Sequence record: SRR22947727_2782
Length of the DNA: 33,074 nt
Direction: 5' to 3' (one strand)
The notes under the pieces are model-generated. The model did no database searches, was not told the origin of the DNA, and saw nothing but the letters and a program-made list of their open reading frames with translations. Shown in pieces: positions 1 through 19,302 of this stretch. A program made the translations under genes and the position numbers. Each line of letters begins with the position of its first letter. Within the stretch, counting starts at the first letter, position 1.

Positions 1-702
1 GGTCACGGTGAGAGTGCCATCGACGGATGTATTTTTAAGTGTTGACTCTCCTTCAACATTCAGCGTGCTCTGCAGGTTCGTTGCTCCAGATGCCGTCAAC
101 GTCGTCAGGGACGTATCACCAGCTACCGATAAATCATTGGTGACAGAAGCATTGGCAACCGTAAGAGAGCCATCACTCGCCTTGATGCCAATCGCACGCT
201 TGAGCGTGCCATCTTGATTGGCAAGAATTAATTCCGTATCCTTATTTGTTCCCGCAAGACTTGCCGCTGTGATGTCTGTTGCGCTTGCGCCCAACATCAT
301 TTGATTATCGCGAATCGCTCTCGCACCAGCACCGATCGCGCTGGCTTGATATCCAGATGCACTGGCATTAGAGCCAATCGCCATAGAGAAAGCCAAGTTG
401 CTACTCGCTCCCCTGCCGATTGCAAAAGCACCTACACCACTGGCGCTTGCTGGTGTAGGTGCAATACCACCAGGCTCGGTACCCATGGCACCTGGGATGT
501 TGGTGATATCGGCCTTCGCGAGCTTTGGCTCTAAGGCTTCGCCAACGAGCACACCGATCGCTCCGAGCTGGCCGATCACCGCCCAACTAGCAAACAGCGT
601 TTGCGCCGATCTGCTCCAGCGTTTACTACGACTGCTTTTTCGCTTCGTTCCACCCCGGCGAAAACCACCTGTCTTAAGAACAGAGACGAGGAGGAAGAAC
701 AA
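1..702 (-). CDS. YadA-like / trimeric autotransporter-type adhesin, N-terminal part (runs off the left edge of the window)
   Basis: Not in the ORF track. Manual translation of the minus strand is open from 723 to position 1. From TTG at 702 it reads MFFLLVSVLKTGGFRRGGTKRKSSRSKRW...GAIGVLVGEALEPKLAKA|DITN (long basic leader, AxA site). Next come 14-residue-spaced AIG head repeats (GAFAIGRGASS, FSMAIGSNASA, QASAIGAGARA), then Ser/Thr-rich LxVxG repeats (LSVAGDTSLTT, LTASGATNLQST, LNVEGESTLKN). The start codon is uncertain and the C-terminal anchor is not visible. Confidence 0.75.
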   Translation of the reverse strand, partial: MFFLLVSVLKTGGFRRGGTKRKSSRSKRWSRSAQTLFASWAVIGQLGAIGVLVGEALEPKLAKADITNIPGAMGTEPGGIAPTPASASGVGAFAIGRGASSNLAFSMAIGSNASASGYQASAIGAGARAIRDNQMMLGASATDITAASLAGTNKDTELILANQDGTLKRAIGIKASDGSLTVANASVTNDLSVAGDTSLTTLTASGATNLQSTLNVEGESTLKNTSVDGTLTVT

Positions 703-946
703 AGTCCTAACTAAAACGTCTATTCACATTGCTGAGTTCTTGATGAGAATGTTTGAAATATCAAGTGAGTCTCAAAGGGACCCGCACGATTGGAATCATT
801 TTTTTTCATCACCTCCCAAAAACCCACTAAGCATTGGCCTGGCAAGTATTAATCAACGAATGATGCTGTCTCAGAGTGAGACATTGCCGTGATGCGGCTG
901 TCCCTATAAAAAGCCGATAAATTTGATCGATGATTAGTTCAATGCG

Positions 947-3900
947 ATGAGCACTGCCTCTCCCTTGCCTGGCGCAGTGCTCAGCGTTCCTGAACAGCGT
1001 TGGTGCTTAGCACCGATTCCCAAAACAAGCTCCACGTTGCTGAAGCGGCTAGCTGTGATTGCAGCAGGCCGCGAACCTTATGAAGGCGCAGCGATCGGTG
1101 AAACGCGCCCGGCCCTGGCCATCCACAGGGCCGATTTGCATGGCTTACCCGCCTTCACTGATCTTTCTAGTGAGCAGCAGAAAAAGCTTCTGCAAGATCC
1201 CCACGCGCTTCGGCTGGCCGTGACCCGCCATCCGGGAGAGCGCTTGCTTTCGTTTTGGCACGACAAGCTGCATCTGGCCGATCCCGCTTACGCGCCCCTG
1301 AATGCATCGGTGCAAGCCAGTTGCAGCAACAATCAAGCAGAGCCTTGCCGCTTTCATGATTTTCTCGCTTACCTCAGCGAGCATTGGGAGTTACTGAAAA
1401 GCGATGGCCATCTAAGGCCCCAAGCCGAGTGGCTTGGTGATGGAAGCTTTTTTAATCAATGGCTCGACCGTGATCATCTGATCAAGCGGTTGCCTCCCCT
1501 ACTCGAGCCTCTGCTTCCAGCCGATCGCCTGCAGCGCATCCGCAAAGAACTTCAGGCCTACGACCAGCGCTACCGCCAACGCTTGGGCAAGCGCTGGGAT
1601 GACGCCTTTGGGAAAGAGGGTTTAACCCTGCTCGAACGGCTGTATGCGGAGGATCTCAAGGCCTACAACTACGCCATACCCCGCCGCCGCAGCGACAAGG
1701 TGCGCCCCCTGGCAGCAGCAGACTCTGATGCCCTTGTGGATCCACTCCAACAGCTGCGCGATCGCCATTTGCAGATTTCTGGCCTGCAACAACAGCTGCT
1801 CGATCTCCATCAACAACTCGCCAATGCTCAGCAACAGCTGCAGCAGCCCCCCCTACCACCACTTCAGCCTCCCGCCGGTGCTTGGCCTAACCACAACAGC
1901 CCGGAAGCCGGCCTTGCCCACCTTTATGAGGCGCTGAGTCAAAACCGGCCGCAAGAAATCCTTGATCAAAGCGCCTCTCTACAAGGCCATCCCCATGCCG
2001 GTGAGATCGCTTACTTGGAAGGTCTTGCCCATGGCCTGCTCAATCAACACGAATTGGCATTGCGCTCCTATGAAGCAGCCCAAAGCCAAGGTTTTCTCAC
2101 CCCCTATGTGTTGTTTAACGGCGGCAATGCTTGCCGTGCCCTAGGCAATACAGACGAAGGCCTGCGTCTGTACAACGAAGCGATTGCCCTCTTCCCTGGG
2201 TTTGGAGAAGCAAGGCAAAACCGCGCACTGGCCCTAATCGATGCCGGCGATCCTCAGGCCGCTGAACGGGAGCTGCGCTTGCTGCTGCGCGATCAACCCA
2301 ATTTTTCCCAAGCCGCCTTTTCGCTTGGCAATTTGCTGCGGGATCACAAGCGCGACCCCGAGGCGATCGAAGCATTTCGGCTTTGCCTGGAGCATGCACC
2401 GGCCTACCCCGATGCCTGGAACAACATGGGCTTGGCCTACGCCAATCTCAAACAGATGGAGCCGGCAATGGCCAGCTACCGCCAGGCCCTCTCCATTGCT
2501 GCCAATTTCAAGCCATCACGCCAAAACCTCGCCCAAGCGCTGATCCAAGAGAAACGCCACAGCGATGCCCTGGAGCAATTCAAGCTGTTTGGCTCCATCG
2601 ATGGTCTCACGTCCTTTGAACAGGTGGTGGGGCTCCAGGGGGAGATCGCTTGCCTTACAGAACTCGATCGTTACGACGACGGGCTTTCTGCAGCTGATCA
2701 ATGCCATACGGATCGGCGCGTGCAATTGATGGCACGCCTCCATGTGCTTCCAGTGCTTTACGGCTCAGACGAGCAAGTGAGCAGCGTACGAAAGCGTTGG
2801 GCGGATGATTGCGCTGAGCTCTACGGGCTACTGGAGGGAATCACCCAGGAGGATTCCGCCTGGGAAACCCTCTATGCCCATGCCTGGTCGCTCACCAACT
2901 TCTATCTGGCCTATCAGATGGAAGACGACCGGCCCCTGCAGGAGCTCTATGCCGGCATCCTCGACCGAATCCTGCGCCCCAGACTGGGTGCGTTCATGCA
3001 ACCGCTCCCTCAACGCAACCCTTCCGACAGCTCACCCCTACGCGTGGGTGTGATCTCCCCCCATTTGATCAACCACAACGGCTCGATCTGGGCCCTCGGT
3101 TGGCTGGAAGGGATTGCCGGAAATCCTGGCTACGAGATCTTCACGTACAACACCTCCGATGGAGAAGACAGCGGTAGCGGACGTTTTGCCGCCTTGGGCA
3201 CCTACCGCCATCTGCCGCTGCGGGCCGAAAACCCCGAGCCGATGTTGCAGCAGATCCTGGACGACAAGCTCGATCTGTTGATCTTTACCGATATCGGCAT
3301 GCACCCATCGAGCAAGGTCACCTCGGTGCTGCAACTCGCACCCGTGCAAGGCCAGGGCTGGGGCCATCCGATTAGTAGTGGTTCGCGCACCATCCACTAC
3401 TACCTCTCAGGGGAAGGCATGGAACCAAAGGGCAATGAAGCGCACTACAGCGAAACCCTGTATCGCCTGCCCAAAACAGGCCTGAACTACGAAATTCCAG
3501 CCGCCATTCACGATGGCCAGCTCCTCTACGACAAGTACGACCTGCCCCGCGATCGCCCCATCCTCAATTCACTGCAAAGCACCTTTAAGTACCTGCCCCG
3601 CAACGACTGGACCTTTGCCGAAATTGCTGCACGCCGCCCCGAAGCGTTCATCGTGCTCGTAGGCCATATGGGTAGTGGTGGCATCGCCGAGCGCTTGCTC
3701 GAGCGGATGCGTCCCCATTTCAAACAGCGCGATTTAGAGATCGAAAACCATCTGCGCATCCTGCCCCGCCTCGATTACGGCGACTTCATGGGCCTGTTTG
3801 CGATTAGCCACCACACGATCGATACGATCGATTGGAATGGGGGCAATAGCTCCCTGCAATCCTTCTCGCTGGACTGCCCGGTGGTGACCTTGCCCACAGC

Positions 3901-4195
3901 GTTCATGCGCGGCCGGCACACCGTGGCGATGCTTGAAGTGTTGGAGCTGCCAGAGCTGATCGCCAGCAACGCCGATGATTACATCGCCATCTCCTGCAAA
4001 CTGCTCGACGATCCCGCCTTTTATCAAGCGATGAAACAGGCGATTCAAGAGCGTAAGCAGCGTCTTTTCCTTGATAAGAGCGTGGCCGAGGCCTTCCAAA
4101 CGGCGGTGGAAACGATCTGCAGGCAGACCCCAAGCGTGGGCCAACAACCCAGCGAAATCCTGCCGCTCGCCCAGCAAGCAAACGAGGCCGCCTGA
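947..4195 (+). CDS. Sulfotransferase (Sulfotransfer_2-like) + TPR + GT41 (OGT/SPINDLY-like) glycosyltransferase fusion protein
   Basis: The N-terminus has PAPS motifs IPKTSSTLLK and RHPGERLLSFW plus HLRPQ, followed by a Gln-rich coil and Pro-rich linker. TPRs include YPDAWNNMGLAYANLKQMEPAMASYRQAL. C-terminal GT41 motifs are RVGVISPHLINH, DLLIFTDIGM, LAPVQGQGWGHPISSG, QSTFKY, IDTIDWNGGNSS and PVVTLPTAFMRGR. Confidence 0.9.
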   Translation: MSTASPLPGAVLSVPEQRWCLAPIPKTSSTLLKRLAVIAAGREPYEGAAIGETRPALAIHRADLHGLPAFTDLSSEQQKKLLQDPHALRLAVTRHPGERLLSFWHDKLHLADPAYAPLNASVQASCSNNQAEPCRFHDFLAYLSEHWELLKSDGHLRPQAEWLGDGSFFNQWLDRDHLIKRLPPLLEPLLPADRLQRIRKELQAYDQRYRQRLGKRWDDAFGKEGLTLLERLYAEDLKAYNYAIPRRRSDKVRPLAAADSDALVDPLQQLRDRHLQISGLQQQLLDLHQQLANAQQQLQQPPLPPLQPPAGAWPNHNSPEAGLAHLYEALSQNRPQEILDQSASLQGHPHAGEIAYLEGLAHGLLNQHELALRSYEAAQSQGFLTPYVLFNGGNACRALGNTDEGLRLYNEAIALFPGFGEARQNRALALIDAGDPQAAERELRLLLRDQPNFSQAAFSLGNLLRDHKRDPEAIEAFRLCLEHAPAYPDAWNNMGLAYANLKQMEPAMASYRQALSIAANFKPSRQNLAQALIQEKRHSDALEQFKLFGSIDGLTSFEQVVGLQGEIACLTELDRYDDGLSAADQCHTDRRVQLMARLHVLPVLYGSDEQVSSVRKRWADDCAELYGLLEGITQEDSAWETLYAHAWSLTNFYLAYQMEDDRPLQELYAGILDRILRPRLGAFMQPLPQRNPSDSSPLRVGVISPHLINHNGSIWALGWLEGIAGNPGYEIFTYNTSDGEDSGSGRFAALGTYRHLPLRAENPEPMLQQILDDKLDLLIFTDIGMHPSSKVTSVLQLAPVQGQGWGHPISSGSRTIHYYLSGEGMEPKGNEAHYSETLYRLPKTGLNYEIPAAIHDGQLLYDKYDLPRDRPILNSLQSTFKYLPRNDWTFAEIAARRPEAFIVLVGHMGSGGIAERLLERMRPHFKQRDLEIENHLRILPRLDYGDFMGLFAISHHTIDTIDWNGGNSSLQSFSLDCPVVTLPTAFMRGRHTVAMLEVLELPELIASNADDYIAISCKLLDDPAFYQAMKQAIQERKQRLFLDKSVAEAFQTAVETICRQTPSVGQQPSEILPLAQQANEAA

Positions 4196-5100
4196 TGCAG
4201 ACGTCTCAGCCCACCCCTTTAACGCTCAAGCCAGAAGATCCAATCCCAGGCGTGCGCGTGCAAACCGGAGACGACTGGGCCCAGATTCAACTGCGCCTGC
4301 GCCAAGGCGAAACGCTCACGCCCCTGCTGCCTCTGGGAGCCGATGCAGGGCTTGTATGGATCCCCAAAAATGGCTGTTCAACGCTCAAACGCGCCTGGCT
4401 GCAACTCCAGGGAACACCATCTGCTGAGATCCACTCTCAAATCCATCAGGCCGTTCTGCCCAGCACCCACTGGCTGCGACCCCATGAGCTCAGCGCCGTG
4501 GCGAAACACAGAGCCTTAGTGGCCATTTGGCGCGACCCCATTGACCGCTACGTATCCGCTTGTCGTAGCCATTTGGTGGAACTCACCAGCAGCCGCATCC
4601 ATTCCAAGCTCCAGGCCAATACCCAAGGCAACCCTCAGGCCTATGAACAGGCGCTTTCTTTTCATCAACAGCTGTTTTCAGCGCAAGATGTGCGCAGTTT
4701 TGACGACACTGCAGATCCCATAGAAGTGATGAATGCCGTAGCGCTACAGCTACCCGCATGGATTCAGTGCCATCTCGACTGGAGCCACCACACCATTCCC
4801 CAGGTGAGCTATCTCGGCGGTGATCCCAGGCCCTATGCCACTGTTTTGGGCATGGAGCAGATCGATTGGCTGCTGCAGCAATGGGGCCAATCCGCAGGCA
4901 TCCAGCTCGATACCACTCCGCAGCATGTATCCCAAGAGCTGGAGCAAGCCGATCCCTGGAGACGTCTGCAGCGGGATCAACTCAGTTCGGAAGCCATCGT
5001 TGCTTTGCATCGCTTTTATGCCGCCGATTGGGCCTTTCTGGAATTAGCCCAACAGCACCTGGGAGCGATTTCGTACGGGGCGGAGATAGAACCCAAATGA
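4195..5100 (+). CDS. Sulfotransferase family 2 protein
   Basis: Motifs WIPKNGCSTLK (5'-PSB), RDPIDRYVSA (3'-PB), HTIPQ and FYAADW. TGATG overlap with the upstream gene at 4193-4197. Confidence 0.85.
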   Translation: MQTSQPTPLTLKPEDPIPGVRVQTGDDWAQIQLRLRQGETLTPLLPLGADAGLVWIPKNGCSTLKRAWLQLQGTPSAEIHSQIHQAVLPSTHWLRPHELSAVAKHRALVAIWRDPIDRYVSACRSHLVELTSSRIHSKLQANTQGNPQAYEQALSFHQQLFSAQDVRSFDDTADPIEVMNAVALQLPAWIQCHLDWSHHTIPQVSYLGGDPRPYATVLGMEQIDWLLQQWGQSAGIQLDTTPQHVSQELEQADPWRRLQRDQLSSEAIVALHRFYAADWAFLELAQQHLGAISYGAEIEPK

Positions 5101-5594
5101 GCCAAACAAATCTCCCAGCAGCGCCTTATCACGTAGACGTTGTCGATCACGCCAAAGATCCTGAAGCCCTCCACGCTGTCTTGGCCATGTGGGTTCGTTA
5201 TGGCGCGATGTCGGAGCAAGAGGCCAAACGCCGCGTCTCTGAAGTGATCTGCGTGATTCGTCATACCCCAACCCATGCGGTCGTTGGTGTCAGCACCGCC
5301 TTTATCTCCTTGATTCCAGGAGGAATACAACGCGTTTATCTCTACCGGATGTTCATCGATCCCTCCCATCGCGGTAAAACCATCCCTCACCGCCAGCCCT
5401 GGATTGCAGCTCAAACCATTGAGGCCCTGCGCCAACGCCAACACAACGATCAAACCGTTGGCGTCGTGGCCATCCTCGAGAACAAACGCATCCCCGATCG
5501 CCTCATGTTGTCATCGGGATGGTCGAAAATGCCACGCCTCTGGCAGGGCAACCGCATGTTCTGCGTGTGCTTCAACAAAGAAGAGATCCTCTGA
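5097..5594 (+). CDS. Hypothetical protein, possible GNAT-fold acyltransferase
   Basis: Start reassigned from 4866 to the ATG at 5097 (ATGA overlap with the upstream stop). YRMFIDPSHRGK resembles GNAT motif A (xxxVxPxxRGxG), and the later LEN...GW pattern is also GNAT-like. Confidence 0.55.
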   Translation: MSQTNLPAAPYHVDVVDHAKDPEALHAVLAMWVRYGAMSEQEAKRRVSEVICVIRHTPTHAVVGVSTAFISLIPGGIQRVYLYRMFIDPSHRGKTIPHRQPWIAAQTIEALRQRQHNDQTVGVVAILENKRIPDRLMLSSGWSKMPRLWQGNRMFCVCFNKEEIL

Positions 5595-6400
5595 TGGCGA
5601 ACGCTCTCCGCCGCTCACAATTCAATTACAACGCCATTGCCTTCACGGCCCACGTGATGTTGCTGATCCAATGCCTCTGGTTTGGCTGGACTTTTGCCCT
5701 AATTGCTTTGCTCAGCGGTCTTGTGATCTATAACCTCACGGCCGGCCTTTACATGCATCGGGTGGTCGTGCATCAGCATTTCAGCTTTTCCTTGGGTTGG
5801 CACCGCCTGTTCTGCAGGTTGTTTTCAATGTGCAATTTCGGAAGCTTGGCCATGAATTGCGCCATTCATCTACGCCATCATCGCTATTCCGATCAACCAG
5901 GGGATCCCCACAGTTACGAGCAACTTGGCCTTAGGCGCTTGCTTCTTAAGCAATGGAATCGCAGTTCCTTGCCGCAAAGCAGGCAGCTCCTGCGCTTCCT
6001 CAGCAATCCCTGCATCAGATATCAACATCGCAACCACATGGCCTATGGGATCGTCACGGCCCTACTGCTCCCGTCGATTTCTGTGTCGGCCTACTGGCTG
6101 ATCAACTTGTTGTTTGTGGTAGCCCATTGGGGGCCCAGCCATCACTCTTCTGAAGGACGAGCGACGGACTGGCCTGCCTTACTTCCATTGATGTGGGGTG
6201 ATGAAATGCATTACCGCCATCACAAATCTCCTGCGCGGAAACGGCTGCGGCGTTTTGATCTGCTTTACATAATTGGCCGCGCAATTGAGTGGCAAAGCTG
6301 GATGGGTCATCCCCCGCAGCCAATCATTGACCTTGATCCATATCCAGCCAGGCTTCAGACACCGGTTCGCTCCCTCAACCAAAACGTTGCATCGCTGTGA
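5594..6400 (+). CDS. Membrane fatty-acid desaturase family protein (delta-9/DesC-like His boxes)
   Basis: Start reassigned to the ATG at 5594 (TGATG overlap). Three His boxes HRVVVH, HLRHHRYSDQPGDPHS and GDEMHYRHH, with hydrophobic segments. Confidence 0.8.
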   Translation: MANALRRSQFNYNAIAFTAHVMLLIQCLWFGWTFALIALLSGLVIYNLTAGLYMHRVVVHQHFSFSLGWHRLFCRLFSMCNFGSLAMNCAIHLRHHRYSDQPGDPHSYEQLGLRRLLLKQWNRSSLPQSRQLLRFLSNPCIRYQHRNHMAYGIVTALLLPSISVSAYWLINLLFVVAHWGPSHHSSEGRATDWPALLPLMWGDEMHYRHHKSPARKRLRRFDLLYIIGRAIEWQSWMGHPPQPIIDLDPYPARLQTPVRSLNQNVASL

Positions 6401-7311
6401 CAACCACCACACCCAACTTTCCAGCCCTCTTGCGGAATCGCCCGGAAGCAGAGCGTCAACAATGGGCCCGCTGGGTGCTGGGCAGCCATAGCGATCAGTT
6501 CCTGCCGGAGATGCTGGCTGCTGTTCAGCAGCTCGACAAGCAAGACCCCATTGCCTATGGCGAACCCGCCGTAAATCCTGGCCCCAGGCCTGACGACCTG
6601 CTGGTCATCACTTCTGAGCGTGGAAAACATTGCGTGGTGTTTGATCAGCCCCTGCCCTGCCGGGCGGTGCTCCTGGATTTCACCGGCACAGGCTTTGAGG
6701 CCGGCAGCAATCCCCACGGCTTTGAAGAACTCAGCCAGGCCTGTGAGGGCATGGGTGACGCCATGAATGTTGTTTGGAACCAGCTCGAGATGCCACCTGA
6801 AGGGCATTACATCAGTGTGGTCTGTGATGACGTAATGCTCCGCTCTAGTGATATCTCCACAATTTTGGCCATAGCTCGGCTACATAATCTCAGTGCTGTG
6901 CAACCCTCAGTCGCTCTAAATCATGAGCTTTGCGCCGAGTACGGATTTCTACGACAACGACCCTGCGTTTCTATGCACCGCGTGCCAATCGTGGAGGTGA
7001 TGGCACCTTTCATTCGCCGCGATCTTTGGGAGTTGATGATGCCCTTTAACCGAGGTATTGGTAGTGCCTACGGCATAGATCGCTTCGCTATCCCACTGTG
7101 CGCTGCACATCTGAATGCATGGCGATTTGCCTCAGTCGATGTCAGCCCCATGACCCACATTCGCCGCGGCCGAACCATTGAAAAGCGGTATCGCAATGGT
7201 TTACTGAGCAAAGAGGAAGAATACTTAGTGCGTCAGCGGTTGATGCTGGCAATGGGATTTGATGTTGACAACGATATCTACAAACAACTTGAAAATAGTG
7301 TCGCGCCGTAA
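6397..7311 (+). CDS. DUF707-like putative glycosyltransferase
   Basis: CDDV, AVQPSV, VEVMAPFIRRDLW and AYGID match the DUF707-type pattern (VEIMAPvFsr.aW ... GWGlD). GTGA overlap with the desaturase stop. Confidence 0.65.
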   Translation: MTTTTPNFPALLRNRPEAERQQWARWVLGSHSDQFLPEMLAAVQQLDKQDPIAYGEPAVNPGPRPDDLLVITSERGKHCVVFDQPLPCRAVLLDFTGTGFEAGSNPHGFEELSQACEGMGDAMNVVWNQLEMPPEGHYISVVCDDVMLRSSDISTILAIARLHNLSAVQPSVALNHELCAEYGFLRQRPCVSMHRVPIVEVMAPFIRRDLWELMMPFNRGIGSAYGIDRFAIPLCAAHLNAWRFASVDVSPMTHIRRGRTIEKRYRNGLLSKEEEYLVRQRLMLAMGFDVDNDIYKQLENSVAP

Positions 7312-7470
7312 AGACTTGATGACTCACTTGCTTGTAGATACGCCTGCATCCTACATCCAATAACTAGGAGTTTAAAACTTGCATGGGCAATCTCAAGGCA
7401 GCTAAGCTTCAGGAGGATCATGCAGTTAACTAAAGCACGCTTAGAAGCTAGTAGGCATAGATTTTATCTT

Positions 7471-8241
7471 TTAGTTTACCGTTAGGCGAGCAAGAATTTT
7501 CAGCGCTTCCTCATTACTAAAAACCTTTTCGGATAAATCAAACAAGCGAGAGAAATATGCATCTCCCCAGGTATTCGCACCGGTTCGACAATAGGCATAA
7601 AGAGTGGGTGCAACAAAAGTAGCGACCTTTGCGTATTTCAACTGCATGGCAACCATTAAGGTGTCTTCTTCTTTGGGGAGTGAAGGATAGACAGGCATGC
7701 ATGATCTCTTCGCAAGCATGGTTCCTTCCCAAATCCTACGATTAGACAATGCAAGAACACTTCTGAGTTGATCATATAAAAGCCATTGACTCAGAAATAC
7801 AGCGTCAGCATTGGCTTCCTTGAGAATCATCAATGAGGCCTTAATTCGTTCTTTGTCATAAAGATCATCATCATCCCATTGGCAAATAAACTCTCCTTGA
7901 GCTCGTGCTACTGAGTAATTTCTTAAATCACCAAGACCAAGCAGCCTTGGTGCCTCGAAAATCCGAACAGATGCTGCCCCTCGTGCATCATCAATCGCAC
8001 GAATAAGCTGATCTGTTAGGCCGTCTGCAACAATAACAAGCTCTTTGTTGTTCCATGTTTGCCGAGCAAAGCTTTTCACTGAATTTGCAACCCTTCCAAT
8101 ATCTCCGCGAGTCACCATAAGCGCACTTACCATATCCTCAGAGAATGGAGTGACCTTACTTTGCAACCAACTAGAGGGATTCATAAATTCTGGGGAATTA
8201 ATCGTGCCAGGATTGAAAACTCGATATTTTATGGGCTCCAA
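7471..8241 (-). CDS. Glycosyltransferase family 2
   Basis: GT-A motifs VSALMVT, QTWNNKELVIVADG, LGDLRNYSVARAQGEFICQWDDDDLY. Visibly more AT-rich than its neighbours. Confidence 0.85.
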   Translation of the reverse strand: MEPIKYRVFNPGTINSPEFMNPSSWLQSKVTPFSEDMVSALMVTRGDIGRVANSVKSFARQTWNNKELVIVADGLTDQLIRAIDDARGAASVRIFEAPRLLGLGDLRNYSVARAQGEFICQWDDDDLYDKERIKASLMILKEANADAVFLSQWLLYDQLRSVLALSNRRIWEGTMLAKRSCMPVYPSLPKEEDTLMVAMQLKYAKVATFVAPTLYAYCRTGANTWGDAYFSRLFDLSEKVFSNEEALKILARLTVN

Positions 8242-8399
8242 ATTGCTATCTCCCTATTTTGCTAGAAATAAACAGCTAGTTTAGCATTAAGTAGCGCAGC
8301 TTGACTTTGTCCTAAAAGATGATGATTATTGATCTGGCAACACACTTACACAATTAAGAAGTAACCGATATTTTTCCATATCAAGATCACAGGCAACAG

Positions 8400-8633
8400 C
8401 GATGGTTTCCAGGCGAGCCACTTCCAGAAGGTGTTCGTTGCTAATCGCCAGCCATTGAAACCCCTCGTCCATCAACCTTTGTTCGAGAACTGCAAGGTCA
8501 ACAGTTAGTCGTCCAAGGCCCACTTTGATGGCCATTTCCCAGCGTGAAACCTGGCTCGCCAGCACGCTGTGCCGATCCGACTCCAGCTCAGACATCACAG
8601 CAGCAGGTGGGTGTCCAGCAAAACTCTGCTCAT
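8400..8633 (-). pseudogene. vapC: Degraded PIN-domain (VapC-like) toxin
   Basis: The ATG at 8633 gives MSRVLLDTHLLL then TGA (8595-8597) where PIN proteins have LLDTHxLLW. Another frame continues LASQVSRWEMAIKVGLGRL...GFQWLAISNEHLLEVARL. The C-terminal HxDPFDR motif is absent. The 3' boundary is approximate. Confidence 0.75.
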
Positions 8634-8704
8634 GGCTGAGTGCACTTAGCAGGCTCAATAGCCTCTTCAAACATCTCGTCCAGTGAGGCATCAAAACCGG
8701 CAAC
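8630..8704 (-). pseudogene. C-terminal remnant of a VapB-type antitoxin
   Basis: The minus-strand frame reads VAGFDASLDEMFEEAIEPAKCTQP*, like the FDAPL..F tail of antitoxins preceding PIN toxins. Its TGA overlaps the vapC ATG (ATGA). The 5' part is missing and the sulfotransferase stop sits at 8709. Confidence 0.5.
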
Positions 8705-8708
8705 TAAC

Positions 8709-9524
8709 TTATCCAAACCGTTCATAGAACCACCCATAGCGCTGCCGGATCCAATCACACAATCCAGGGCCAAAAATCTCTAAGGCCTGGCTGGGTTGTG
8801 GTTCTACTTTGTGGCGGATCTGATGATCTCCAAACACCCCATACACCTCATCATCTTCAATAGTGATTTGCTCCACATTGTTGAAATCATGTTTGGCGTA
8901 GTAAGGGAGCCCTACATAGGAATAAAAACGCTCAAGTTCTAAACGAGGGTTAGCGCAGAGATCCTCATAGCGAATGAACAACATCTGTTGATCAATGCCC
9001 TGGCGCAACGTTTCCTGCAAGCGTTCCATCGCCAAACCCACCGGCGGAGACACCACCCAATGGTCCAGGCGTTTCTCCAGGCTGGTGTTGACCATCTCAC
9101 TGTGATTCACCATTCCTGGATCATGCAAACCTGCCTTGCGAAAATTGCGCTCCATCGAACAGAGAATATCGAGGGGATCGCGGATCATGCACACAATTTT
9201 GGGGTTGGGATAAAACGCTTCAAGGAACGCGTAATGCACACTCCAACCACGGCTTTTATCCAACAACCAGGGCTTATCCGTGAGGGCACTGGCGTAGCCC
9301 TCCAGACCTCCACGGCAAAACCCGATGAAGGCCCGCTCCATCTCCTCTCGGCCCTGCGCCTTAAATTCCTCGCCGCGGCTGAACTGCCCGCGGGCCACAT
9401 AAAGCAGATCCAGCAACCCCGATGTAGGGGTCACATGAAAAGCGGGGTTCTGCCCCACGATGTTGCTGAACAGGGTTGAACCTGCCCGAGGCAGCGACGA
9501 TTGAAAAGCGAGTTGCGTTGTCAT
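8709..9524 (-). CDS. Sulfotransferase, RaxST-like family
   Basis: Motifs SSLPRAGSTL, QNPAFHVTPTS, DKSRGW, IRDPLDILCSMER, IRYEDL and HDFNNV. Start set at the ATG at 9524, which is preceded by GAGGAG. Confidence 0.85.
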   Translation of the reverse strand: MTTQLAFQSSLPRAGSTLFSNIVGQNPAFHVTPTSGLLDLLYVARGQFSRGEEFKAQGREEMERAFIGFCRGGLEGYASALTDKPWLLDKSRGWSVHYAFLEAFYPNPKIVCMIRDPLDILCSMERNFRKAGLHDPGMVNHSEMVNTSLEKRLDHWVVSPPVGLAMERLQETLRQGIDQQMLFIRYEDLCANPRLELERFYSYVGLPYYAKHDFNNVEQITIEDDEVYGVFGDHQIRHKVEPQPSQALEIFGPGLCDWIRQRYGWFYERFG

Positions 9525-9574
9525 TGGTGGTCTCCTCTGCACTGCACCGATGCATCCAGTTCACTCACGAAAGA

Positions 9575-9964
9575 TCACTCCAGTGACAACCGAACAAAAT
9601 TCAACACCACTTGAGCTGCATGACAAGCCAGGCTGGAGTCCCTGGCGTCAAAACGATCCACAGGCGCTTCATCGTCGCGGGGATAACGGGATTCACTATT
9701 CATTCGGCTGAGTCCCTTGAGATGGAGATCCCTTAGAGGGGCAACATTGATGCCCTGACCAGCAAGCTCATCCACCAGGCGATCCAGGGAATGGCTGTAT
9801 GGAGGAATGTTGCCAAGTGATATCAGCAAACCTTTCAGAGCTTTTTCGGCTGTCTGGCCGTAGTGATAACAAGCCTGGCTATGGAAGTTCTGGGCCTCGG
9901 TGAGCTGCCCCACCCTGAAATCACTCTCTGCCTGTCGCATCCATGCGTCGATCCGTGCGCTCAT
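9575..9964 (-). CDS. HEPN domain protein (MNT-HEPN pair)
   Basis: WMRQAESDF, ACYHYGQTAEKALKGLL, PPYSHSL and SRYP. The ATG at 9964 overlaps the MNT stop (ATGA). Confidence 0.88.
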   Translation of the reverse strand: MSARIDAWMRQAESDFRVGQLTEAQNFHSQACYHYGQTAEKALKGLLISLGNIPPYSHSLDRLVDELAGQGINVAPLRDLHLKGLSRMNSESRYPRDDEAPVDRFDARDSSLACHAAQVVLNFVRLSLE

Positions 9965-10323
9965 CGATCGCCCAGGCAAAAGCTATCTGCAGCGATCGCA
10001 CGCCAATAAGGGTCATGCCCCTGGCGCAACTTTTGCCACTCCTGCACGGTGAGCGCGATCACGTCATCCGCCATCCCGCAAGCAAGAACCTGATCCGCCA
10101 ATCGATCAGCACATCCCTGATCCCGGCCGACAGCAAGCACGTCTACATCAGAAAAGGCATCCCAATCTCCCCGCGCCAAGGAGCCAAACAACCAGAGACT
10201 GCACCCATCAAAATGTGAAAGCAATGAGCTGGCTTTGCTCCTGAGGGTTTGGACACGCTCCTCCCGTTTCCGCTCTCGAATCGCGGCCACAGAAGTCTTG
10301 GTTGTGGTTTCAGACGCAAGCAT
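9961..10323 (-). CDS. Minimal nucleotidyltransferase (MNT) domain protein
   Basis: LFGSLARGDWDAFSDVDVL fits GS-x10-DxD. Coupled to the HEPN gene. Confidence 0.88.
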   Translation of the reverse strand: MLASETTTKTSVAAIRERKREERVQTLRSKASSLLSHFDGCSLWLFGSLARGDWDAFSDVDVLAVGRDQGCADRLADQVLACGMADDVIALTVQEWQKLRQGHDPYWRAIAADSFCLGDR

Positions 10324-10329
10324 GCTCAA

Positions 10330-10358
10330 ACCCTATGGCGTGCCGAGCAAGCCTGCAA
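10330..10358 (-). promoter_or_regulatory. Putative sigma70-type promoter for MNT-HEPN, possibly leaderless
   Basis: On the minus strand: TTGCAG (10358-10353), 17 nt spacer, TAGGGT (10335-10330, TAnnnT), then 6 nt to the ATG at 10323. No Shine-Dalgarno is visible. Confidence 0.35.
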
Positions 10359-10367
10359 GGCCAATCC

Positions 10368-10637
10368 TTATGCGTAGTGACTCCAAAGCCTCAACACCTT
10401 CACGATTTGCTCTTCATCTAACACCTGATACACAAGCCGGTGCTGAATATTGATCCGGCGGGAATAGGCACCCTTGAGATCTCCAACCAAGGCTTCATAG
10501 GGAGGAGGCTTCTGGAAAGGATCGCTATGGAGCAAGGCAAGCAAACGTTCAGCCTTGGCCTTCAAAGCAGGCGAGGCGCTAGCGAGCTTGCGGGCATCCC
10601 GCTGAGCCTGGCGGGTAAACAACACACGCCAGCTCAC
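10368..10637 (-). CDS. yoeB: Txe/YoeB family toxin
   Basis: PPPYEALVGDLKGAYSRRINIQHRLVYQV...KVLRLWSHY. GTG start at 10637 overlaps the antitoxin stop (GTGA). Confidence 0.92.
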   Translation of the reverse strand: MSWRVLFTRQAQRDARKLASASPALKAKAERLLALLHSDPFQKPPPYEALVGDLKGAYSRRINIQHRLVYQVLDEEQIVKVLRLWSHYA

Positions 10638-10876
10638 CAGCCAGGGGACTCGCTGAGCGAGGATTCTGGTGCCGCCATCCCTTCCAGGATCGACTCCCGC
10701 ATGCCGGGAATCGAGGAGAGATAAAGGGTTTCTTGAATCGCTCGCCAATCCTCTTCCGACACCAACACGGCATTGCCGCGCTTGCCGTGGATCTCCACTG
10801 GAGCGTGGGATTCACCAACTTCATCCACCAAGGCAAACAAACGCTTGCGCGCTTCAGTCACGGAAATCGAAGCCAC
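10634..10876 (-). CDS. yefM: Phd/YefM family antitoxin
   Basis: SVTEARKRLFALVDEV...PVEIHGKRGNAVLVSEEDWRAIQETLYLSSIPGMRESI. GTG start at 10876. Confidence 0.92.
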   Translation of the reverse strand: MASISVTEARKRLFALVDEVGESHAPVEIHGKRGNAVLVSEEDWRAIQETLYLSSIPGMRESILEGMAAPESSLSESPGW

Positions 10877-10897
10877 CTCTGCACCAATAATCAACAC

Positions 10898-10913
10898 GTA
10901 CGCAAAAGCGTAC
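10898..10913. promoter_or_regulatory. Putative YefM-YoeB autorepression operator
   Basis: Inverted repeat GTACGC-AAAA-GCGTAC about 20 nt upstream of yefM, with two GTAC cores 12 bp apart, as in the TGTACA-core operators of yefM-yoeB. Confidence 0.65.
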
Positions 10914-10939
10914 ACAGACTCAGTGCCTGGAGCAAGGCC

Positions 10940-13441: not shown

Positions 13442-13613
13442 GCAGAGGCCGAAAGTGGACCCAGATTGCCAGAGCTGGCCAGAAGAGCCAGGGCCTTGCT
13501 AGGAGCTAGGCGACTGAGCCCTTCCCCCCTGCAGCCTTTAAACGCTCACCGGCAGCAAAGCCCAGCCCCTTGTGCCGTTGGCGCTGCCCTGATGGAAAAC
13601 GCGTGAGAGCCCA

Positions 13614-15152
13614 GTGAGAATAGGCAATTTAAGGGAATTGCAATCGCTGGCTTGCATCCCCTTTTTGGGCATCCTCGCCAGCCTGCAGCTGATCGACCCC
13701 AGCGTGGCCAATATCGCCTTGGTGAAAGCCAGCGATGCCTTGCAGATGCATGGCGCTGTGTTGGCCCTCGGCGCCAGCGTGTCGACCCTGGCCCAAGCCG
13801 CATCGGTGCTGGTAATGGGCTTTTTCGGCGACCGTTTTGGCCGGCGCAGGGTGCTGGCGGCCTCGCTACTGCTCGCGGTGGTGGGGAATCTGCTTTCAAT
13901 GCTGTCGGGCGAGGCGGGCCTATTCCTGGTTGGCCGTGCTCTCACCGGCATCGCCCTCGGCTCAGTGCTCACCAGCACTTTTGCCAGCGTGCGCTTCGTG
14001 ACACCCGCCGCTGGCGTGAGCGCCGCCCTGGGCCTCTGGAACCTGCTGATCGTGGTGGGCTTCATCAGCGGCTCCCTGATCGGTGGCTGGATGGCCACCA
14101 TCAATTGGCGCCTGTCTTTTTTGCTGGTGCCGATCATTTGCAGCGCCAGCCTGCTGCTCTTACCAGCACTGCTGCCTGCCATTCCAGGCAATCGCGCCCT
14201 CAAGCCCGACCTCCCTGGCCTGGCGAGCATCGCGATCGCGATGGTGCTGTTTTTATTTGGCATCAACCACGCCGCTTTAGGGCTGCGCAGCCCCAGCTTC
14301 TGGCTGCCGGCCTGCAGCGGACTGCTCTTGTTTGTGCTGCACATCAGCCTTGAGCGCCGCAGCCGCAAACCGATGTTTCCGCCGCGGCTGTACCTGCGTG
14401 GTTTCTTTGCCGCAGCCGTGATCAATGGGATCGGCTGGAATGTGGCCCAAGCGGTGGTGCAGCTGCAAACCAGCAACTTCTGGCAGCTGGTGCAGGGCTA
14501 CAGCACCAGTGCGGTGGCCTTCGCTCAACTGCCCTTCCTGATCTGTTTTGGCGTGGCGGGGATCTACGCCGGGCGCTGGATGGGTCCTGGCCGGCGCACC
14601 TTGGTGTTGATGGCGGGCGGCAGCCTGGCGCTGGTGCTCGGCCTGGCCCTATTCGCCATCGTGCAAGTGCAAACGCCCTATTGGCAGCTGCTGCCGGCCC
14701 TGATGCTGGCAGGCCTCGGCCTGGCCTTTGTGGCCGTGCCCCAATCCGCCTTGTTTGTACAGGAAGCACCAGAGGATTGCTTTGGATCGGTGCTGGCCTT
14801 TCGCACCACGAGCGGCCAGCTGGGCTTTGCCTTTGGACTCGCCGCCAGCGGCACGATGATCAGCGGCTTTGGCTTCCATGATCTCCACAGCCGCATGCAG
14901 GCCGCAGGCCTGGGCTTGGAGCATCTGCCCCAACTCGACGAGCAGATTCGTTTGTTTTTGCGCAATAGCCCGATCTCGCTTGAGGGATCGGCGTCTCAGC
15001 AGCTTCTCAATCTTCTGCGGGAGGCCTACACCCAGGGACTAGCCGGAACGATGCTGGTTGTGGCGGTGCTCACGGGGCTGCTGTTTGCGATCAGCTTGCT
15101 GCTGTTGATCATTGGCCGCGAGCAACAACTGCTCCATCAAGAAGGTTCCTGA
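13614..15152 (+). CDS. MFS transporter (DHA2/EmrB-QacA-like)
   Basis: MFS motif A GFFGDRFGRRRVL, GRALTGIALG, many hydrophobic segments and a large loop before the last helix. Confidence 0.88.
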   Translation: MRIGNLRELQSLACIPFLGILASLQLIDPSVANIALVKASDALQMHGAVLALGASVSTLAQAASVLVMGFFGDRFGRRRVLAASLLLAVVGNLLSMLSGEAGLFLVGRALTGIALGSVLTSTFASVRFVTPAAGVSAALGLWNLLIVVGFISGSLIGGWMATINWRLSFLLVPIICSASLLLLPALLPAIPGNRALKPDLPGLASIAIAMVLFLFGINHAALGLRSPSFWLPACSGLLLFVLHISLERRSRKPMFPPRLYLRGFFAAAVINGIGWNVAQAVVQLQTSNFWQLVQGYSTSAVAFAQLPFLICFGVAGIYAGRWMGPGRRTLVLMAGGSLALVLGLALFAIVQVQTPYWQLLPALMLAGLGLAFVAVPQSALFVQEAPEDCFGSVLAFRTTSGQLGFAFGLAASGTMISGFGFHDLHSRMQAAGLGLEHLPQLDEQIRLFLRNSPISLEGSASQQLLNLLREAYTQGLAGTMLVVAVLTGLLFAISLLLLIIGREQQLLHQEGS

Positions 15153-15406
15153 GCGATACCGTCTTCCGCATCAAGCAAGGCATCGAGCGTGACCGCTGTG
15201 CGCACCAGCGCTTGATAGCGCTGCAACACCCGTCGATTGCGCTCCAACCAACGGGCGGCATCGACTGGCGTATCTCGGCTGCCCCCACTCACCAAGCCGG
15301 AGGGATTATCCACATCCATCAGCTCTAAATCACCCTGTTGGGCCAGGAGGGCCAACAGGATGTCGTGGAGGCGTTGCCGGCGCTCCTTGATCCCATTGGT
15401 GCACAT
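15137..15406 (-). CDS. Small hypothetical protein
   Basis: Plausible helical protein (ERRQRLHDILLALL...ARWLERNRRVLQRYQALVRTAVTLDALLDAE) that fills the gap between genes. It overlaps the MFS 3' end by 16 nt. Start uncertain. Confidence 0.6.
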   Translation of the reverse strand: MCTNGIKERRQRLHDILLALLAQQGDLELMDVDNPSGLVSGGSRDTPVDAARWLERNRRVLQRYQALVRTAVTLDALLDAEDGIAQEPS

Positions 15407-15480
15407 TTCAACCACACCGCTCTCGCTGTGGCCATCTTGAAGGGATGGAGGTCATATGCCTCCGCGCACTCACCCTTTTC

Positions 15481-16913: not shown

Positions 16914-16940
16914 CCGGTCCGCCATAGAGACAGCTCCGGC

Positions 16941-18005: not shown

Positions 18006-18154
18006 CACAAACCTAGAAACCCGCAGCCCGCAGGGACAGAATGAAGGCTCATTTCGAAACCGCTATGGTCCCCAACAAAGTACTTAGGGAGTCTTATTGG
18101 CAGTCCTAGCAAAAACTATGCATAATTTGCACTCCAATGCGTAAGGAGCCGAGC

Positions 18155-19183: not shown

Positions 19184-19241
19184 GCGAAAATAAAGCCGAG
19201 AAAGACGAATCCCTACCCCTTCAAGACACACACTCCCTCGA

Positions 19242-19281: not shown

Positions 19282-19302
19282 GAAGAGGTCTAAGTAACGA
19301 TC

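What the first reader, a model, noticed from the sequence alone, without database searches (positions are those of the whole stretch)
1..7311. Candidate adhesin-decoration system: YadA-like adhesin divergent from a coupled glycosylation/sulfation/acylation operon
Seen: a Ser/Thr-rich YadA-head protein on the minus strand shares a ~245 bp intergenic region with five plus-strand genes. Every junction overlaps (TGATG 4193-4197, ATGA 5097-5100, TGATG 5592-5596, GTGA 6397-6400). The genes encode sulfotransferase-TPR-GT41, a second sulfotransferase, a GNAT-like protein, a desaturase and a DUF707-like GT. Established: GT41 enzymes (HMW1C-like, OGT/SPY-like) glycosylate proteins, and HMW1C-like enzymes modify adhesins including trimeric autotransporters. 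Inference: the operon builds a sulfated, possibly acylated glycan on this adhesin, altering attachment, grazer recognition or phage binding. I do not know of such a system described in picocyanobacteria.
Basis: partly seen in the sequence, partly recalled or inferred. Interest (0 to 1): 0.85.

Follow-up and report, generated by a model that had tools for sequence, protein, structure and literature searches.

The report
Adhesin with its own glycosylation-sulfation genes
A marine Synechococcus island pairs the start of a giant trimeric autotransporter adhesin with an operon of a fused sulfotransferase/protein-glycosyltransferase and helper enzymes, a pairing kept across picocyanobacterial genera, so the enzymes probably decorate the adhesin, though no chemistry has been shown.

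Summary
Window 1-702(-) is the truncated 5' end of a giant trimeric autotransporter adhesin (TAA). Orthologues are 1017-4803 aa and have YadA heads, a YadA anchor and a coiled-coil tail.

Five overlapping genes lie 244 bp away on the other strand:
- a Sulfotransfer_2-TPR-GT41 fusion (STG);
- a second Sulfotransfer_2 (ST2);
- a GNAT-like protein (weak evidence);
- a His-box membrane enzyme;
- a DUF707-related GT-A glycosyltransferase (D707).

In 19 of 22 assessable STG loci, from 8 of 64 sampled genera plus extra MAGs, a TAA gene lies next to STG. STG identity falls to 48%, different genes are inserted between the pair, and in one locus the orientation differs. D707 follows STG in 20 of 24 loci and ST2 in 15 of 24. 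The GNAT-like and His-box genes occur only in the window.

All four soluble enzymes lack membrane segments. Best reading (about 0.5): an HMW1C-like cytoplasmic pathway that glycosylates and sulfates the adhesin before export.

The "acylation" part is strain-specific and unsupported. No biochemical evidence exists. My literature searches found no description of this module.

The parts
1..702 (-). 5' end (234 codons, cut by the window start) of a giant trimeric autotransporter adhesin: basic N-terminus, hydrophobic signal-like segment at aa 35-54, then the first YadA-head repeats.
   Evidence: YadA_head 24.3 bits; hydropathy. Orthologues are 63-70% identical over these 234 aa and run to 3506, 4803 and 4612 aa, with a YadA_anchor.
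703..946 (.). Divergent intergenic region, 244 bp, 41% GC. Presumed to hold promoters for both directions.
   Evidence: The consensus promoter and terminator scan was at chance level, and there was no Rfam hit.
947..4195 (+). STG: a 1082-aa fusion of a Sulfotransfer_2 domain (aa 23-243), a Q-rich linker, TPR repeats (about aa 345-550) and a GT41 catalytic domain (about aa 590-1075). No membrane segment.
   Evidence: Invariant motif residues across 13 homologues are listed.
4195..5100 (+). ST2: a stand-alone Sulfotransfer_2 protein of 301 aa. Its start overlaps the STG stop.
   Evidence: (32.2 bits) and alignment A4 (P57, N59, G60, W112, R113, D114, P115 and R118 invariant in 10 sequences). Present in 15 of 24 loci.
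5097..5594 (+). Strain-specific 165-aa protein, possibly a GNAT-fold acyltransferase.
   Evidence: No Pfam hit. Only 5 homologues among 5.8 billion clusters. The model is of low confidence (pLDDT 51.8). The top Foldseek rows are nearly all GNATs, but the best E-value is 0.058. The protein atlas gives a lead only. Absent from all 23 other loci.
5594..6400 (+). Strain-specific 268-aa membrane protein with three His-box-like motifs, like a fatty-acid desaturase or hydroxylase.
   Evidence: motifs HRVVVH, HLRHH, HYRHH read by eye; DesA family, 29.3 bits against a cut-off of 400; two hydrophobic blocks. No orthologue in 46 genomes of the genus.
6397..7311 (+). D707: a 304-aa soluble GT-A-fold glycosyltransferase with invariant D144 and D145, distantly related to DUF707, and a conserved 60-aa N-terminal extension.
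   Evidence: Follows STG in 20 of 24 loci.
7471..8241 (-). GT2-family glycosyltransferase, convergent with the operon, in a low-GC (45%) stretch. Found only in the window, so it is a possible accessory tailoring gene.
   Evidence: Glycos_transf_2, 51.8 bits. No tblastn hit in the other loci.
8709..9542 (-). Sulfotransfer_3/Sulfotransfer_1-type sulfotransferase that recurs in or beside the module in other genomes.
   Evidence: 70.9 bits. Homologues lie in the island in G012 (two copies), G062, G017, G231, G138 and G116.

Best explanation
The region is an accessory cell-surface module. It combines a giant trimeric autotransporter adhesin with enzymes dedicated to modifying it.

Proposed mechanism, modelled on HMW1C/HMW1 and HMW1C-like/Knh:
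1. In the cytoplasm, the TPR array of STG binds the unfolded, repeat-rich adhesin passenger.
2. The GT41 domain of STG puts a first sugar on it. The link is most likely O-linked to Ser or Thr, because the domain is closest to OGT and SPINDLY.
3. The GT-A enzyme D707 adds or extends a sugar.
4. The sulfotransferase domain fused to STG, together with ST2, uses PAPS to sulfate that glycan.
5. The decorated chain is exported through Sec and its own anchor.

Strain-specific genes would vary the decoration: a GNAT-like protein, a His-box enzyme and a GT2 in the window; a UDP-galactopyranose mutase or methyltransferases elsewhere.

Shown here: gene content, domain identities, conserved catalytic motifs, absence of membrane segments, conserved linkage to the adhesin, and a universal APS kinase.

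Inferred: that the adhesin is the acceptor, the type of linkage, the order of steps, that sulfate goes onto the glycan, and any ecological effect.
For: 1. Linkage. A TAA gene lies next to STG in 19 of 22 assessable loci. In the sampled family search, STG occurs in 8 of 64 genera. Three further records, L028, L030 and L033, were added to the tally. STG identity falls to 48%.

2. The pairing survives rearrangement. An AraC gene, a histidine kinase or RHH genes are inserted between the two genes in L026, L029 and L027. In L033 the two genes are co-directional. L037 lacks the sulfotransferase domain. G031 has a different chromosomal flank.

3. Co-occurrence. 14 of the 16 genomes with STG have a YadA_anchor hit, against 44 of the 385 without STG.

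4. Joint loss. In G017 a single deletion removes the TAA up to about residue 2898 and STG up to residue 908.

5. Specificity. A second class of giant TAAs (2839 and 3138 aa) and the small TAAs have no such neighbours.

6. Enzyme type. The GT41 domain aligns over about 340 residues with T. terrenum OGT, SPINDLY and XcOGT. The motif residues K881, H956, D959, T960 and N964-S969 are invariant in 13 homologues. Every characterised GT41 that I recall acts on proteins. HMW1C-like GT41 enzymes glycosylate the TAAs Knh and EmaA, and HMW1 is modified in the cytoplasm (PMC4550697, abstract read).

7. Location. STG, ST2 and D707 have no hydrophobic segment. No Wzx, Wzy or polysaccharide-export gene was seen in the loci I scanned.

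8. Sulfate donor. APS kinase is present in 46 of 46 genomes of the genus. The putative PAPS-binding motifs are invariant.

9. Translational coupling. All four gene junctions overlap.
Against: - There is no biochemical or proteomic evidence of any kind. Linkage is not modification.
- The loci are related by descent, so 19 of 22 overstates the number of independent observations.
- There are three exceptions. L028 has a subtilase-RTX gene upstream and no TAA in the 5.1 kb available. In G303 the TAA is about 10 kb away. G014 has no TAA in its genome.
- More distant GT41 homologues (31-36% identity) occur in five other cyanobacterial genomes, none of which has a YadA_anchor hit. The wider enzyme family therefore has other acceptors.
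- The conserved flank of the window also carries a sulfatase, an FGE maturase, another sulfotransferase, a GH116 and an MFS transporter. The chromosomal neighbourhood deals with sulfated glycans whether or not the adhesin is present.
- S+T content and NX[ST] density do not separate linked from unlinked TAAs.
- Export of a sulfated, negatively charged chain through Sec and a TAA barrel has no precedent that I know of.
Confidence: 0.5

Rival explanations
1. The operon makes a sulfated non-protein glycan, such as an LPS or EPS side chain or a glycolipid. It sits next to the adhesin only because both belong to the same hypervariable cell-surface island and are inherited or regulated together.
For: - The island and its flank hold further glycan genes: a GT2, two Sulfotransfer_3 genes, GH116, an MFS transporter, a sulfatase and an FGE maturase.
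- The window-specific His-box membrane enzyme points to lipid chemistry.
- Glycosyltransferases and giant ORFs are known as generic contents of Synechococcus islands (PMC2441476, passages read).
- GT-A enzymes like D707 match teichoic-acid, hyaluronan and galactan enzymes as well as polypeptide GalNAc-transferases.
Against: - GT41 with TPR repeats is a protein-modifying architecture in the solved relatives that match.
- No flippase, polymerase, export or lipid-carrier priming gene appeared in the scanned loci.
- The STG-TAA adjacency persists while the rest of the island content changes from strain to strain.
- The nearest genome, G001, keeps the sulfatase/GH116 flank but lacks both the adhesin and the operon.
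Confidence: 0.2
2. STG is a broader protein O-glycosyltransferase whose real clients are other proteins, such as other autotransporters, pilins or cytoplasmic regulators, as reported for bacterial OGT homologues. The adhesin is at most one client among many.
For: - In G303 the gene next to STG is a type Va autotransporter (PF03797, 131 bits), not a TAA.
- G014 keeps a 64%-identical TPR-GT41 in a genome with no TAA.
- Distant homologues live in genomes without a TAA.
Against: - The subfamily is accessory, found in 16 of 401 genomes.
- Its presence tracks one TAA orthologue group.
- It is lost together with that TAA in G017.
Confidence: 0.15
3. STG acts mainly as a non-catalytic TPR chaperone or regulator of adhesin production, and its enzyme domains are vestigial.
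For: - TPR proteins often act as chaperones or scaffolds.
- The ST2 copy in L030 looks decayed: the motif Lys is replaced and a segment of about 36 residues is missing.
Against: - Catalytic-motif residues of both the sulfotransferase and the GT41 domains are invariant across 13 homologues down to 40% identity.
- Partner enzymes are co-conserved: D707 in 20 of 24 loci and ST2 in 15 of 24.
Confidence: 0.05

Closest known systems
HMW1C/NGT-type cytoplasmic GT41 glycosylation of adhesins: HMW1 in Haemophilus influenzae, and the TAAs Knh in Kingella kingae and EmaA in Aggregatibacter aphrophilus (PMC4550697, abstract read)
   Same: A soluble GT41-family enzyme is paired with a large type V secreted adhesin. 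Modification would take place in the cytoplasm before export. TAAs are proven acceptors in that system.
   Different: The catalytic domain here matches OGT, SPINDLY and XcOGT better than HMW1C/NGT (49.5-40 bits against about 29 bits), and the NGT model scores 29.7 bits against a cut-off of 1000. STG carries TPR repeats and a fused sulfotransferase. A second glycosyltransferase and further sulfotransferases are co-encoded. The host is a free-living phototroph.
TPR-GT41 O-glycosyltransferases: human OGT, Arabidopsis SPINDLY, Xanthomonas XcOGT and Thermobaculum terrenum OGT (PDB 7yeh, 7y4i, 2vsn, 5djs)
   Same: A TPR array followed by a GT41 GT-B catalytic domain, with aligned motifs.
   Different: Those enzymes modify many intracellular proteins and have no sulfotransferase domain. 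STG is an accessory-island gene tied to one secreted adhesin.
Carbohydrate sulfotransferases of Pfam Sulfotransfer_2 (PF03567)
   Same: The domain scores above the cut-off in STG and in ST2, and the loop residues I take to bind PAPS are conserved.
   Different: The characterised members that I recall are Golgi enzymes of animals. A bacterial member fused to a protein glycosyltransferase turned up in none of my searches.
DUF2827 putative glycosyltransferases encoded next to TAAs in Burkholderia, Veillonellales and Pasteurellales (bioRxiv 10.64898/2026.01.22.700529, passages read)
   Same: A candidate cytoplasmic glycosyltransferase repeatedly encoded beside TAA genes, proposed from genomic association alone. 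The same preprint notes the long periplasmic coiled-coil tail of Synechococcus TAAs, which I also see.
   Different: It is a different enzyme family with no sulfotransferase. In the passages I read, the preprint does not mention a GT41 or sulfotransferase partner in cyanobacteria.

Membership tests
Trimeric autotransporter adhesin (type Vc) | YadA-head repeats in the passenger | tested here: met
   The window fragment scores 24.3 bits (cut-off 25, E 4.1e-5). The orthologue P0007 scores 524 bits over 32 stretches.
Trimeric autotransporter adhesin (type Vc) | C-terminal YadA-like membrane anchor | tested here: inconclusive
   This cannot be seen in the window, because the gene runs off position 1. 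It is met in the orthologues: 41.9 bits in P0007, and above the cut-off in the STG-linked genes of G036, G024, G068, G231, G116, G138 and others.
Trimeric autotransporter adhesin (type Vc) | N-terminal Sec signal | tested here: inconclusive
   There is a hydrophobic segment at aa 35-54 after a basic stretch. No dedicated signal-peptide predictor was available.
GT41 (OGT/SPINDLY type) | GT41 catalytic domain above the family threshold, aligned to solved members | tested here: met
   PF13844 scores 40.1 bits against a cut-off of 25. Alignments of about 340 residues were obtained to 5djs, 7y4i and 2vsn.
GT41 (OGT/SPINDLY type) | N-terminal TPR array | tested here: met
   TPR_1 scores 62.6 bits and TPR_2 60.5 bits, spanning aa 390-550.
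GT41 (OGT/SPINDLY type) | Conserved nucleotide-sugar-binding Lys and neighbouring motifs | tested here: met
   K881 in the STFKY motif aligns with the Lys of SPINDLY's NLAKI motif and is invariant in 13 homologues. That this Lys is the catalytic, UDP-binding one is recalled, not tested.
GT41 (OGT/SPINDLY type) | Glycosyl transfer to protein | not testable with these tools
   Needs an enzyme assay or glycoproteomics.
HMW1C/NGT N-glycosyltransferase subfamily | Match to the NGT equivalog model and absence of TPR | tested here: not met
   NF049992 scores 29.7 bits against a cut-off of 1000. The PDB matches 8j30 and 3q3e score about 29 bits, weaker than the OGT-type matches. TPR repeats are present.
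Sulfotransfer_2 (PF03567) | Domain above the threshold, with conserved PAPS-loop residues | tested here: met
   STG scores 50.4 bits and ST2 32.2 bits against a cut-off of 22. K26, T30, K33, R34 and R94-R99 are invariant in STG. P57, N59, G60, R113, D114, P115 and R118 are invariant in ST2. The assignment of these residues to PAPS binding is recalled.
DUF707 (PF05212) / GT-A glycosyltransferase | Direct match to PF05212 | tested here: inconclusive
   The window protein has no hit at E <= 1, and 1 of 11 orthologues hits at E 0.033. Of 10 more distant relatives found with the family profile, 7 hit DUF707 at E <= 3.4e-4 and 3 of those exceed the cut-off.
DUF707 (PF05212) / GT-A glycosyltransferase | GT-A fold with an acidic DxD-type motif | tested here: met
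   The model has pLDDT 83.5 and pTM 0.85. Foldseek and VIA hits are all GT-A enzymes; the best is Z 11.7, rmsd 4.5, 233 residues aligned to 2d7i_A, and many rows are tied within 1 Z. D144 and D145 are invariant.
GNAT acyltransferase | GNAT fold and acyl-CoA-binding motif | tested here: inconclusive
   There is no Pfam hit. The model is poor, at pLDDT 51.8. Nearly all of the top 50 Foldseek rows are GNATs, but the best E-value is 0.058. One protein-atlas cluster has Acetyltransf_1 on 12% of its members.
Membrane fatty-acid desaturase/hydroxylase | Family model match and three His boxes in a membrane protein | tested here: inconclusive
   The DesA family model scores 29.3 bits against a cut-off of 400, and there is no Pfam hit. 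Three His-box-like motifs were read by eye, and there are two hydrophobic blocks.

The most novel reading that the evidence does not exclude
Picocyanobacteria carry a previously undescribed kind of adhesin-maturation system. A single polypeptide couples an OGT-type protein glycosyltransferase to a carbohydrate sulfotransferase. With a DUF707-type glycosyltransferase, it coats a multi-thousand-residue trimeric autotransporter fibre with sulfated O-glycans in the cytoplasm before export. The result would be a mucin-like, polyanionic surface fibre, the first sulfated glycoprotein adhesin in Bacteria. Strain-variable tailoring genes (Galf supply, methylation, acylation) and a fast-recombining adhesin 5' end would diversify this fibre against phages and grazers.
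Probability: 0.3. Interest if true: 0.85.

Novelty: new variant of a known kind. Interest (0 to 1): 0.7.

Why it matters
Marine Synechococcus, Cyanobium and low-light Prochlorococcus are among the most abundant phototrophs. Their hypervariable surface islands are thought to control phage adsorption, grazing and aggregation, yet almost none of the giant surface proteins has a known function or maturation pathway.

This module gives a concrete hypothesis that can be tested: one adhesin, with two to four dedicated enzymes. The locus records name cultured strains that carry it.

If the hypothesis is right, cytoplasmic GT41 glycosylation of autotransporters extends from a few animal pathogens to free-living phototrophs. 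It would also add sulfation, a modification barely known on bacterial proteins, and it would supply a compact fused enzyme of possible use in glycoengineering.

Tried and rejected
- The window's own assembly is not held, so the adhesin gene could not be extended. I used orthologous loci instead.
- The nearest genome, G001, lacks window 1 to about 10950 and gave no help with the module.
- The promoter and terminator scan of 500-7700 gave counts near those of shuffled sequence (2 promoter-like sites against 3.7 +/- 1.9; 11 terminator-like sites against 7.1 +/- 2.4). I call no promoter or terminator.
- There were no Rfam families and no tRNAs in the whole window.
- Ser/Thr content (18-25%) and NX[ST] density (1.3-4.3 per 100 aa) of the STG-linked TAAs overlap those of the two unlinked giant TAAs (22.6-23.4%; about 3.3 per 100 aa). 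I rejected both as substrate signatures. The NX[ST] excess in P0007 (101 against 67.6 +/- 7.1 in shuffles) is therefore not specific.
- PDB sequence searches gave nothing for D707 and only a chance-level hit for ST2.
- The model of the GNAT-like protein was too poor for a firm fold call.
- The His-box protein has only weak partial matches (27-34% over about 100 aa) to housekeeping desaturases in the genus.
- APS kinase is present in 46 of 46 genomes, so it does not discriminate.
- Metatranscriptome contigs (X17-X19) hold pieces of 150-540 nt, 90-99% alike, of STG, ST2, the GNAT-like gene, the His-box gene and D707, and one piece of the adhesin 5' end. These show presence in RNA libraries only. 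They do not prove transcription, operon structure or expression level.
- The search of earlier findings returned nothing.
- I did not run complex prediction. An enzyme-substrate pair is a poor case for it, and a pass would not have tested the main claim.
- Literature searches that found no description of this module.
- Supplementary tables of PMC2441476 and PMC7522525, which list island genes, could not be opened and may mention these genes.
Full report
**What is in the window.** The minus-strand frame 1-702 runs off the window start. It encodes a basic N-terminus, a hydrophobic signal-like segment (aa 35-54) and alanine/serine/threonine/glycine-rich repeats. These repeats score 24.3 bits against Pfam YadA_head, just under the cut-off of 25 (E 4.1e-5). 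A 244-bp spacer of 41% GC follows, and then five plus-strand genes. Their junctions all overlap exactly as reported: TGATG 4193-4197, ATGA 5097-5100, TGATG 5592-5596, GTGA 6397-6400.

**The five operon genes.**
- Gene 1 (947-4195), here called STG, is a 1082-aa fusion. It has Sulfotransfer_2 (50.4 bits, aa 23-243), a Q-rich linker, TPR repeats and Glyco_transf_41 (40.1 bits).
- Gene 2 (4195-5100, ST2) is a second Sulfotransfer_2 protein (32.2 bits).
- Gene 3 (5097-5594) and gene 5 (6397-7311, D707) have no direct Pfam or NCBIfam hit.
- Gene 4 (5594-6400) has only a weak DesA-family hit (29.3 bits against a cut-off of 400). It also has three His-box-like motifs visible in the translation and two hydrophobic blocks.
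- STG, ST2, gene 3 and D707 have no membrane segment.

**The adhesin is a giant trimeric autotransporter.** The window's own assembly is not held. The nearest genome, G001, is 97% identical from about window 10953 onward but lacks everything to the left of that point. The finding therefore lies in an accessory island. Orthologous loci were found in other genomes of the genus. There the gene whose first 234 residues are 63-70% identical to the window fragment runs for 3506, 4803 and 4612 codons. The 3506-aa protein, P0007, scores 524 bits on YadA_head in 32 stretches and 41.9 bits on YadA_anchor (cut-off 22.7). It ends in a coiled-coil tail of about 140 aa. A 2026 preprint notes such a long periplasmic coiled-coil domain for Synechococcus TAAs (10.64898/2026.01.22.700529, passages read). 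TAAs in Synechococcus were already listed in 2008 (PMC2373917, passage read).

**What the enzymes are.**
- STG, catalytic domain. The C-terminal 490 residues align over about 340 residues with Thermobaculum terrenum OGT (49.5 bits), Arabidopsis SPINDLY (42 bits) and Xanthomonas XcOGT (40 bits). The match to HMW1C/NGT is weaker, about 29 bits. The NGT equivalog model scores 29.7 bits against a cut-off of 1000. STG is thus a TPR-bearing OGT/SPINDLY-type GT41, not an HMW1C-type enzyme.
- STG, conservation. Across 13 homologues down to 40% identity, the GT41 motif residues (K881, H956, D959, T960, N964-S969) are invariant, and so are the sulfotransferase loop residues (K26, T30, K33, R34, R94-R99).
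- ST2. It keeps the equivalent residues in 10 sequences. The exception is the copy in L030, which looks decayed.
- D707. Modelled from 11 orthologues (pLDDT 83.5, pTM 0.85), it has a GT-A fold. Foldseek's best rows are TarS, hyaluronan synthase, ColGalT1 and GlfT2. VIA-align gives Z 11.7 to 10.3 for polypeptide GalNAc-transferases, GpgS, MPGS, TarS, TarP and GlfT2, and these rows are tied. D144 and D145 are invariant.
- D707, family. A profile search of 1.84 billion representatives found 635 relatives at E <= 0.001. Of 10 distant relatives that I scanned, 7 hit Pfam DUF707 and 3 of those exceed the cut-off.
- Gene 3. The GNAT idea for gene 3 remains a lead only. The protein has just 5 homologues, all from metagenomes. 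Its model is poor (pLDDT 51.8). Its top Foldseek rows are nearly all GNATs, but none is significant (best E 0.058).

I searched STG in three ways:
- in the 46 held genomes of the genus: 9 with a match at E <= 1e-25;
- in 401 sampled genomes of the family: 16 with a match at E <= 1e-100, from 8 of 64 genera;
- in the contigs of one genome per species: 14 loci, including records titled Synechococcus sp. RCC307, Cyanobium sp. CH-040, Synechococcus sp. BA-120, Aphanothece stagnina and Prochlorococcus sp. MIT 0707.

After merging duplicates there are 24 distinct loci, counting the window. Two begin inside STG and cannot be assessed upstream. Of the other 22, 19 have a TAA gene next to STG (tblastn and ORF maps).

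**The pairing survives many changes.**
- STG identity falls to 48%.
- The TAA ranges from 1017 to 4803 aa.
- An AraC regulator (L026), a histidine kinase (L029) or two RHH genes (L027) are inserted between the two genes.
- The two genes are co-directional in L033.
- The sulfotransferase domain is missing in L037.
- The flank differs in G031.
- In G017 a single deletion has removed the TAA up to about residue 2898 and STG up to residue 908, so both were lost together.

**The three exceptions.**
- L028 has a subtilase-RTX gene upstream and only 5.1 kb of flank.
- G014 has a 64%-identical TPR-GT41 without a sulfotransferase domain, among paralogues, in a genome with no YadA_anchor hit.
- In G303, STG is followed by a type Va autotransporter (PF03797, 131 bits), and a 2170-aa TAA lies about 10 kb further on.

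**Baseline and specificity.** YadA_anchor occurs in 58 of the 401 family genomes. It occurs in 14 of the 16 genomes with STG and in 44 of the 385 without. Conversely, a second class of giant TAAs (2839 and 3138 aa) and the many small TAAs have no STG, ST2 or D707 nearby. These genomes are kin, so the counts overstate independence. The variety of rearrangements is the stronger argument.

**Core and accessory parts.**
- D707 follows STG in 20 of the 24 loci and ST2 in 15 of 24.
- The GNAT-like and His-box genes were found in none of the 23 other loci. The His-box protein has no orthologue in 46 genomes of the genus.
- The GT2 gene at 7471-8241 is also found only in the window.
- Other strains carry other tailoring genes in the same place. 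G036 carries a UDP-galactopyranose mutase directly after D707 (181 bits); the equivalent ORF in G024 and G068 was not scanned against Pfam. L050 and L030 carry methyltransferases.
- A Sulfotransfer_3 gene like window 8709-9542 recurs in G012, G062, G017, G231, G138 and G116.

This pattern, a fixed priming enzyme with variable tailoring genes, is what glycan-diversifying loci look like. It also means that acylation is not part of the conserved system.

**Mechanism and its limits.** The solved and characterised GT41 relatives that match are protein glycosyltransferases. HMW1 is glycosylated in the cytoplasm by HMW1C, and HMW1C-like enzymes glycosylate the TAAs Knh and EmaA, which need the modification to function (PMC4550697, abstract read). 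The enzymes here are soluble. The sulfate donor pathway is universal in the genus (APS kinase in 46 of 46 genomes). No polysaccharide export or lipid-carrier genes appeared in the loci I scanned.

I therefore favour, at about 0.5, cytoplasmic glycosylation of the adhesin passenger by STG, with extension by D707 and sulfation by the fused sulfotransferase domain and ST2 before Sec export.

Against this reading:
- There is no chemistry at all.
- More distant GT41 homologues (31-36% identity) sit in five cyanobacterial genomes, none of which has a TAA.
- The conserved flank of the window carries a sulfatase, an FGE maturase, another sulfotransferase, a GH116 and an MFS transporter. A role in a sulfated non-protein glycan is therefore a serious rival (0.2).
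- Composition does not mark the linked TAAs as special.
- Short pieces of all five operon genes and of the adhesin 5' end occur in contigs of three metatranscriptome runs. This does not prove transcription.

**Novelty.** Giant ORFs and glycosyltransferases in Synechococcus islands are known in general terms (PMC2441476 and PMC7522525, passages read). Neither paper's main text contains the words sulfotransferase, autotransporter or adhesin, and I could not open their supplements. Seven literature searches found no description of a GT41 or sulfotransferase module tied to cyanobacterial TAAs, nor of a sulfotransferase-GT41 fusion in bacteria.

I rate the finding a new variant of a known kind. Cytoplasmic GT41 decoration of autotransporter adhesins is known. 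The OGT-type enzyme, its fusion to a sulfotransferase, the co-conserved DUF707-type glycosyltransferase and the host group are new.

Noticed in passing
window 18137-19183 (+) and 19508-20329 (+): Two AraC-family regulators lie in a low-GC (44-45%) stretch. They are full-length homologues (32% and 28% identity) of the AraC gene that sits between the TAA and STG in locus L026. They may be regulators of the module.
   Followed up: partly
window 10940-13441 (-), 13614-15152 (+), 16941-18008 (-), 20439-22757 (+), 29143-29991 (-): The flank shared with the nearest genome encodes GH116, an MFS transporter, a Sulfotransfer_3 protein, a 772-aa sulfatase and an FGE-type sulfatase maturase. Genes for sulfated glycans therefore sit here independently of the adhesin island.
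   Followed up: no
window 9575-10748 (-): A HEPN/nucleotidyltransferase pair and a YoeB/ParE-like toxin gene lie at the inner edge of the island. Homologues sit at the same place in G012, G062 and G017.
   Followed up: no
L010 (G012) 3-305 (-) and 777-1328 (-): A decayed 183-aa TAA N-terminal fragment lies between STG and a second TAA start. The window's adhesin 5' end is 63-70% identical to genomes whose STG is only 73-75% identical to the window's. It is only 42-44% identical to genomes whose STG is 93% identical. The adhesin and the enzyme genes therefore have mosaic histories.
   Followed up: partly
L048 17267-18487 (-) and L051 10475-16987 (-) (G303): Here STG stands without ST2 or D707. 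A type Va autotransporter beta-domain protein lies next to it, and a 2170-aa TAA lies about 10 kb away.
   Followed up: partly
L014 (G014) 8501-19904 (+): Three tandem genes of 1038-1129 aa each match STG by tblastn. The first is 64% identical to STG over TPR+GT41. None matches the sulfotransferase domain, and the genome has no YadA_anchor hit. Their acceptor is unknown.
   Followed up: no
L037, about 1671-8420 (-), and beyond: The genome behind this locus has two TAA anchor hits about 6 kb apart (ORFs of 2249 and 1759 aa), so two large TAAs stand in tandem next to its TPR-GT41 gene.
   Followed up: no
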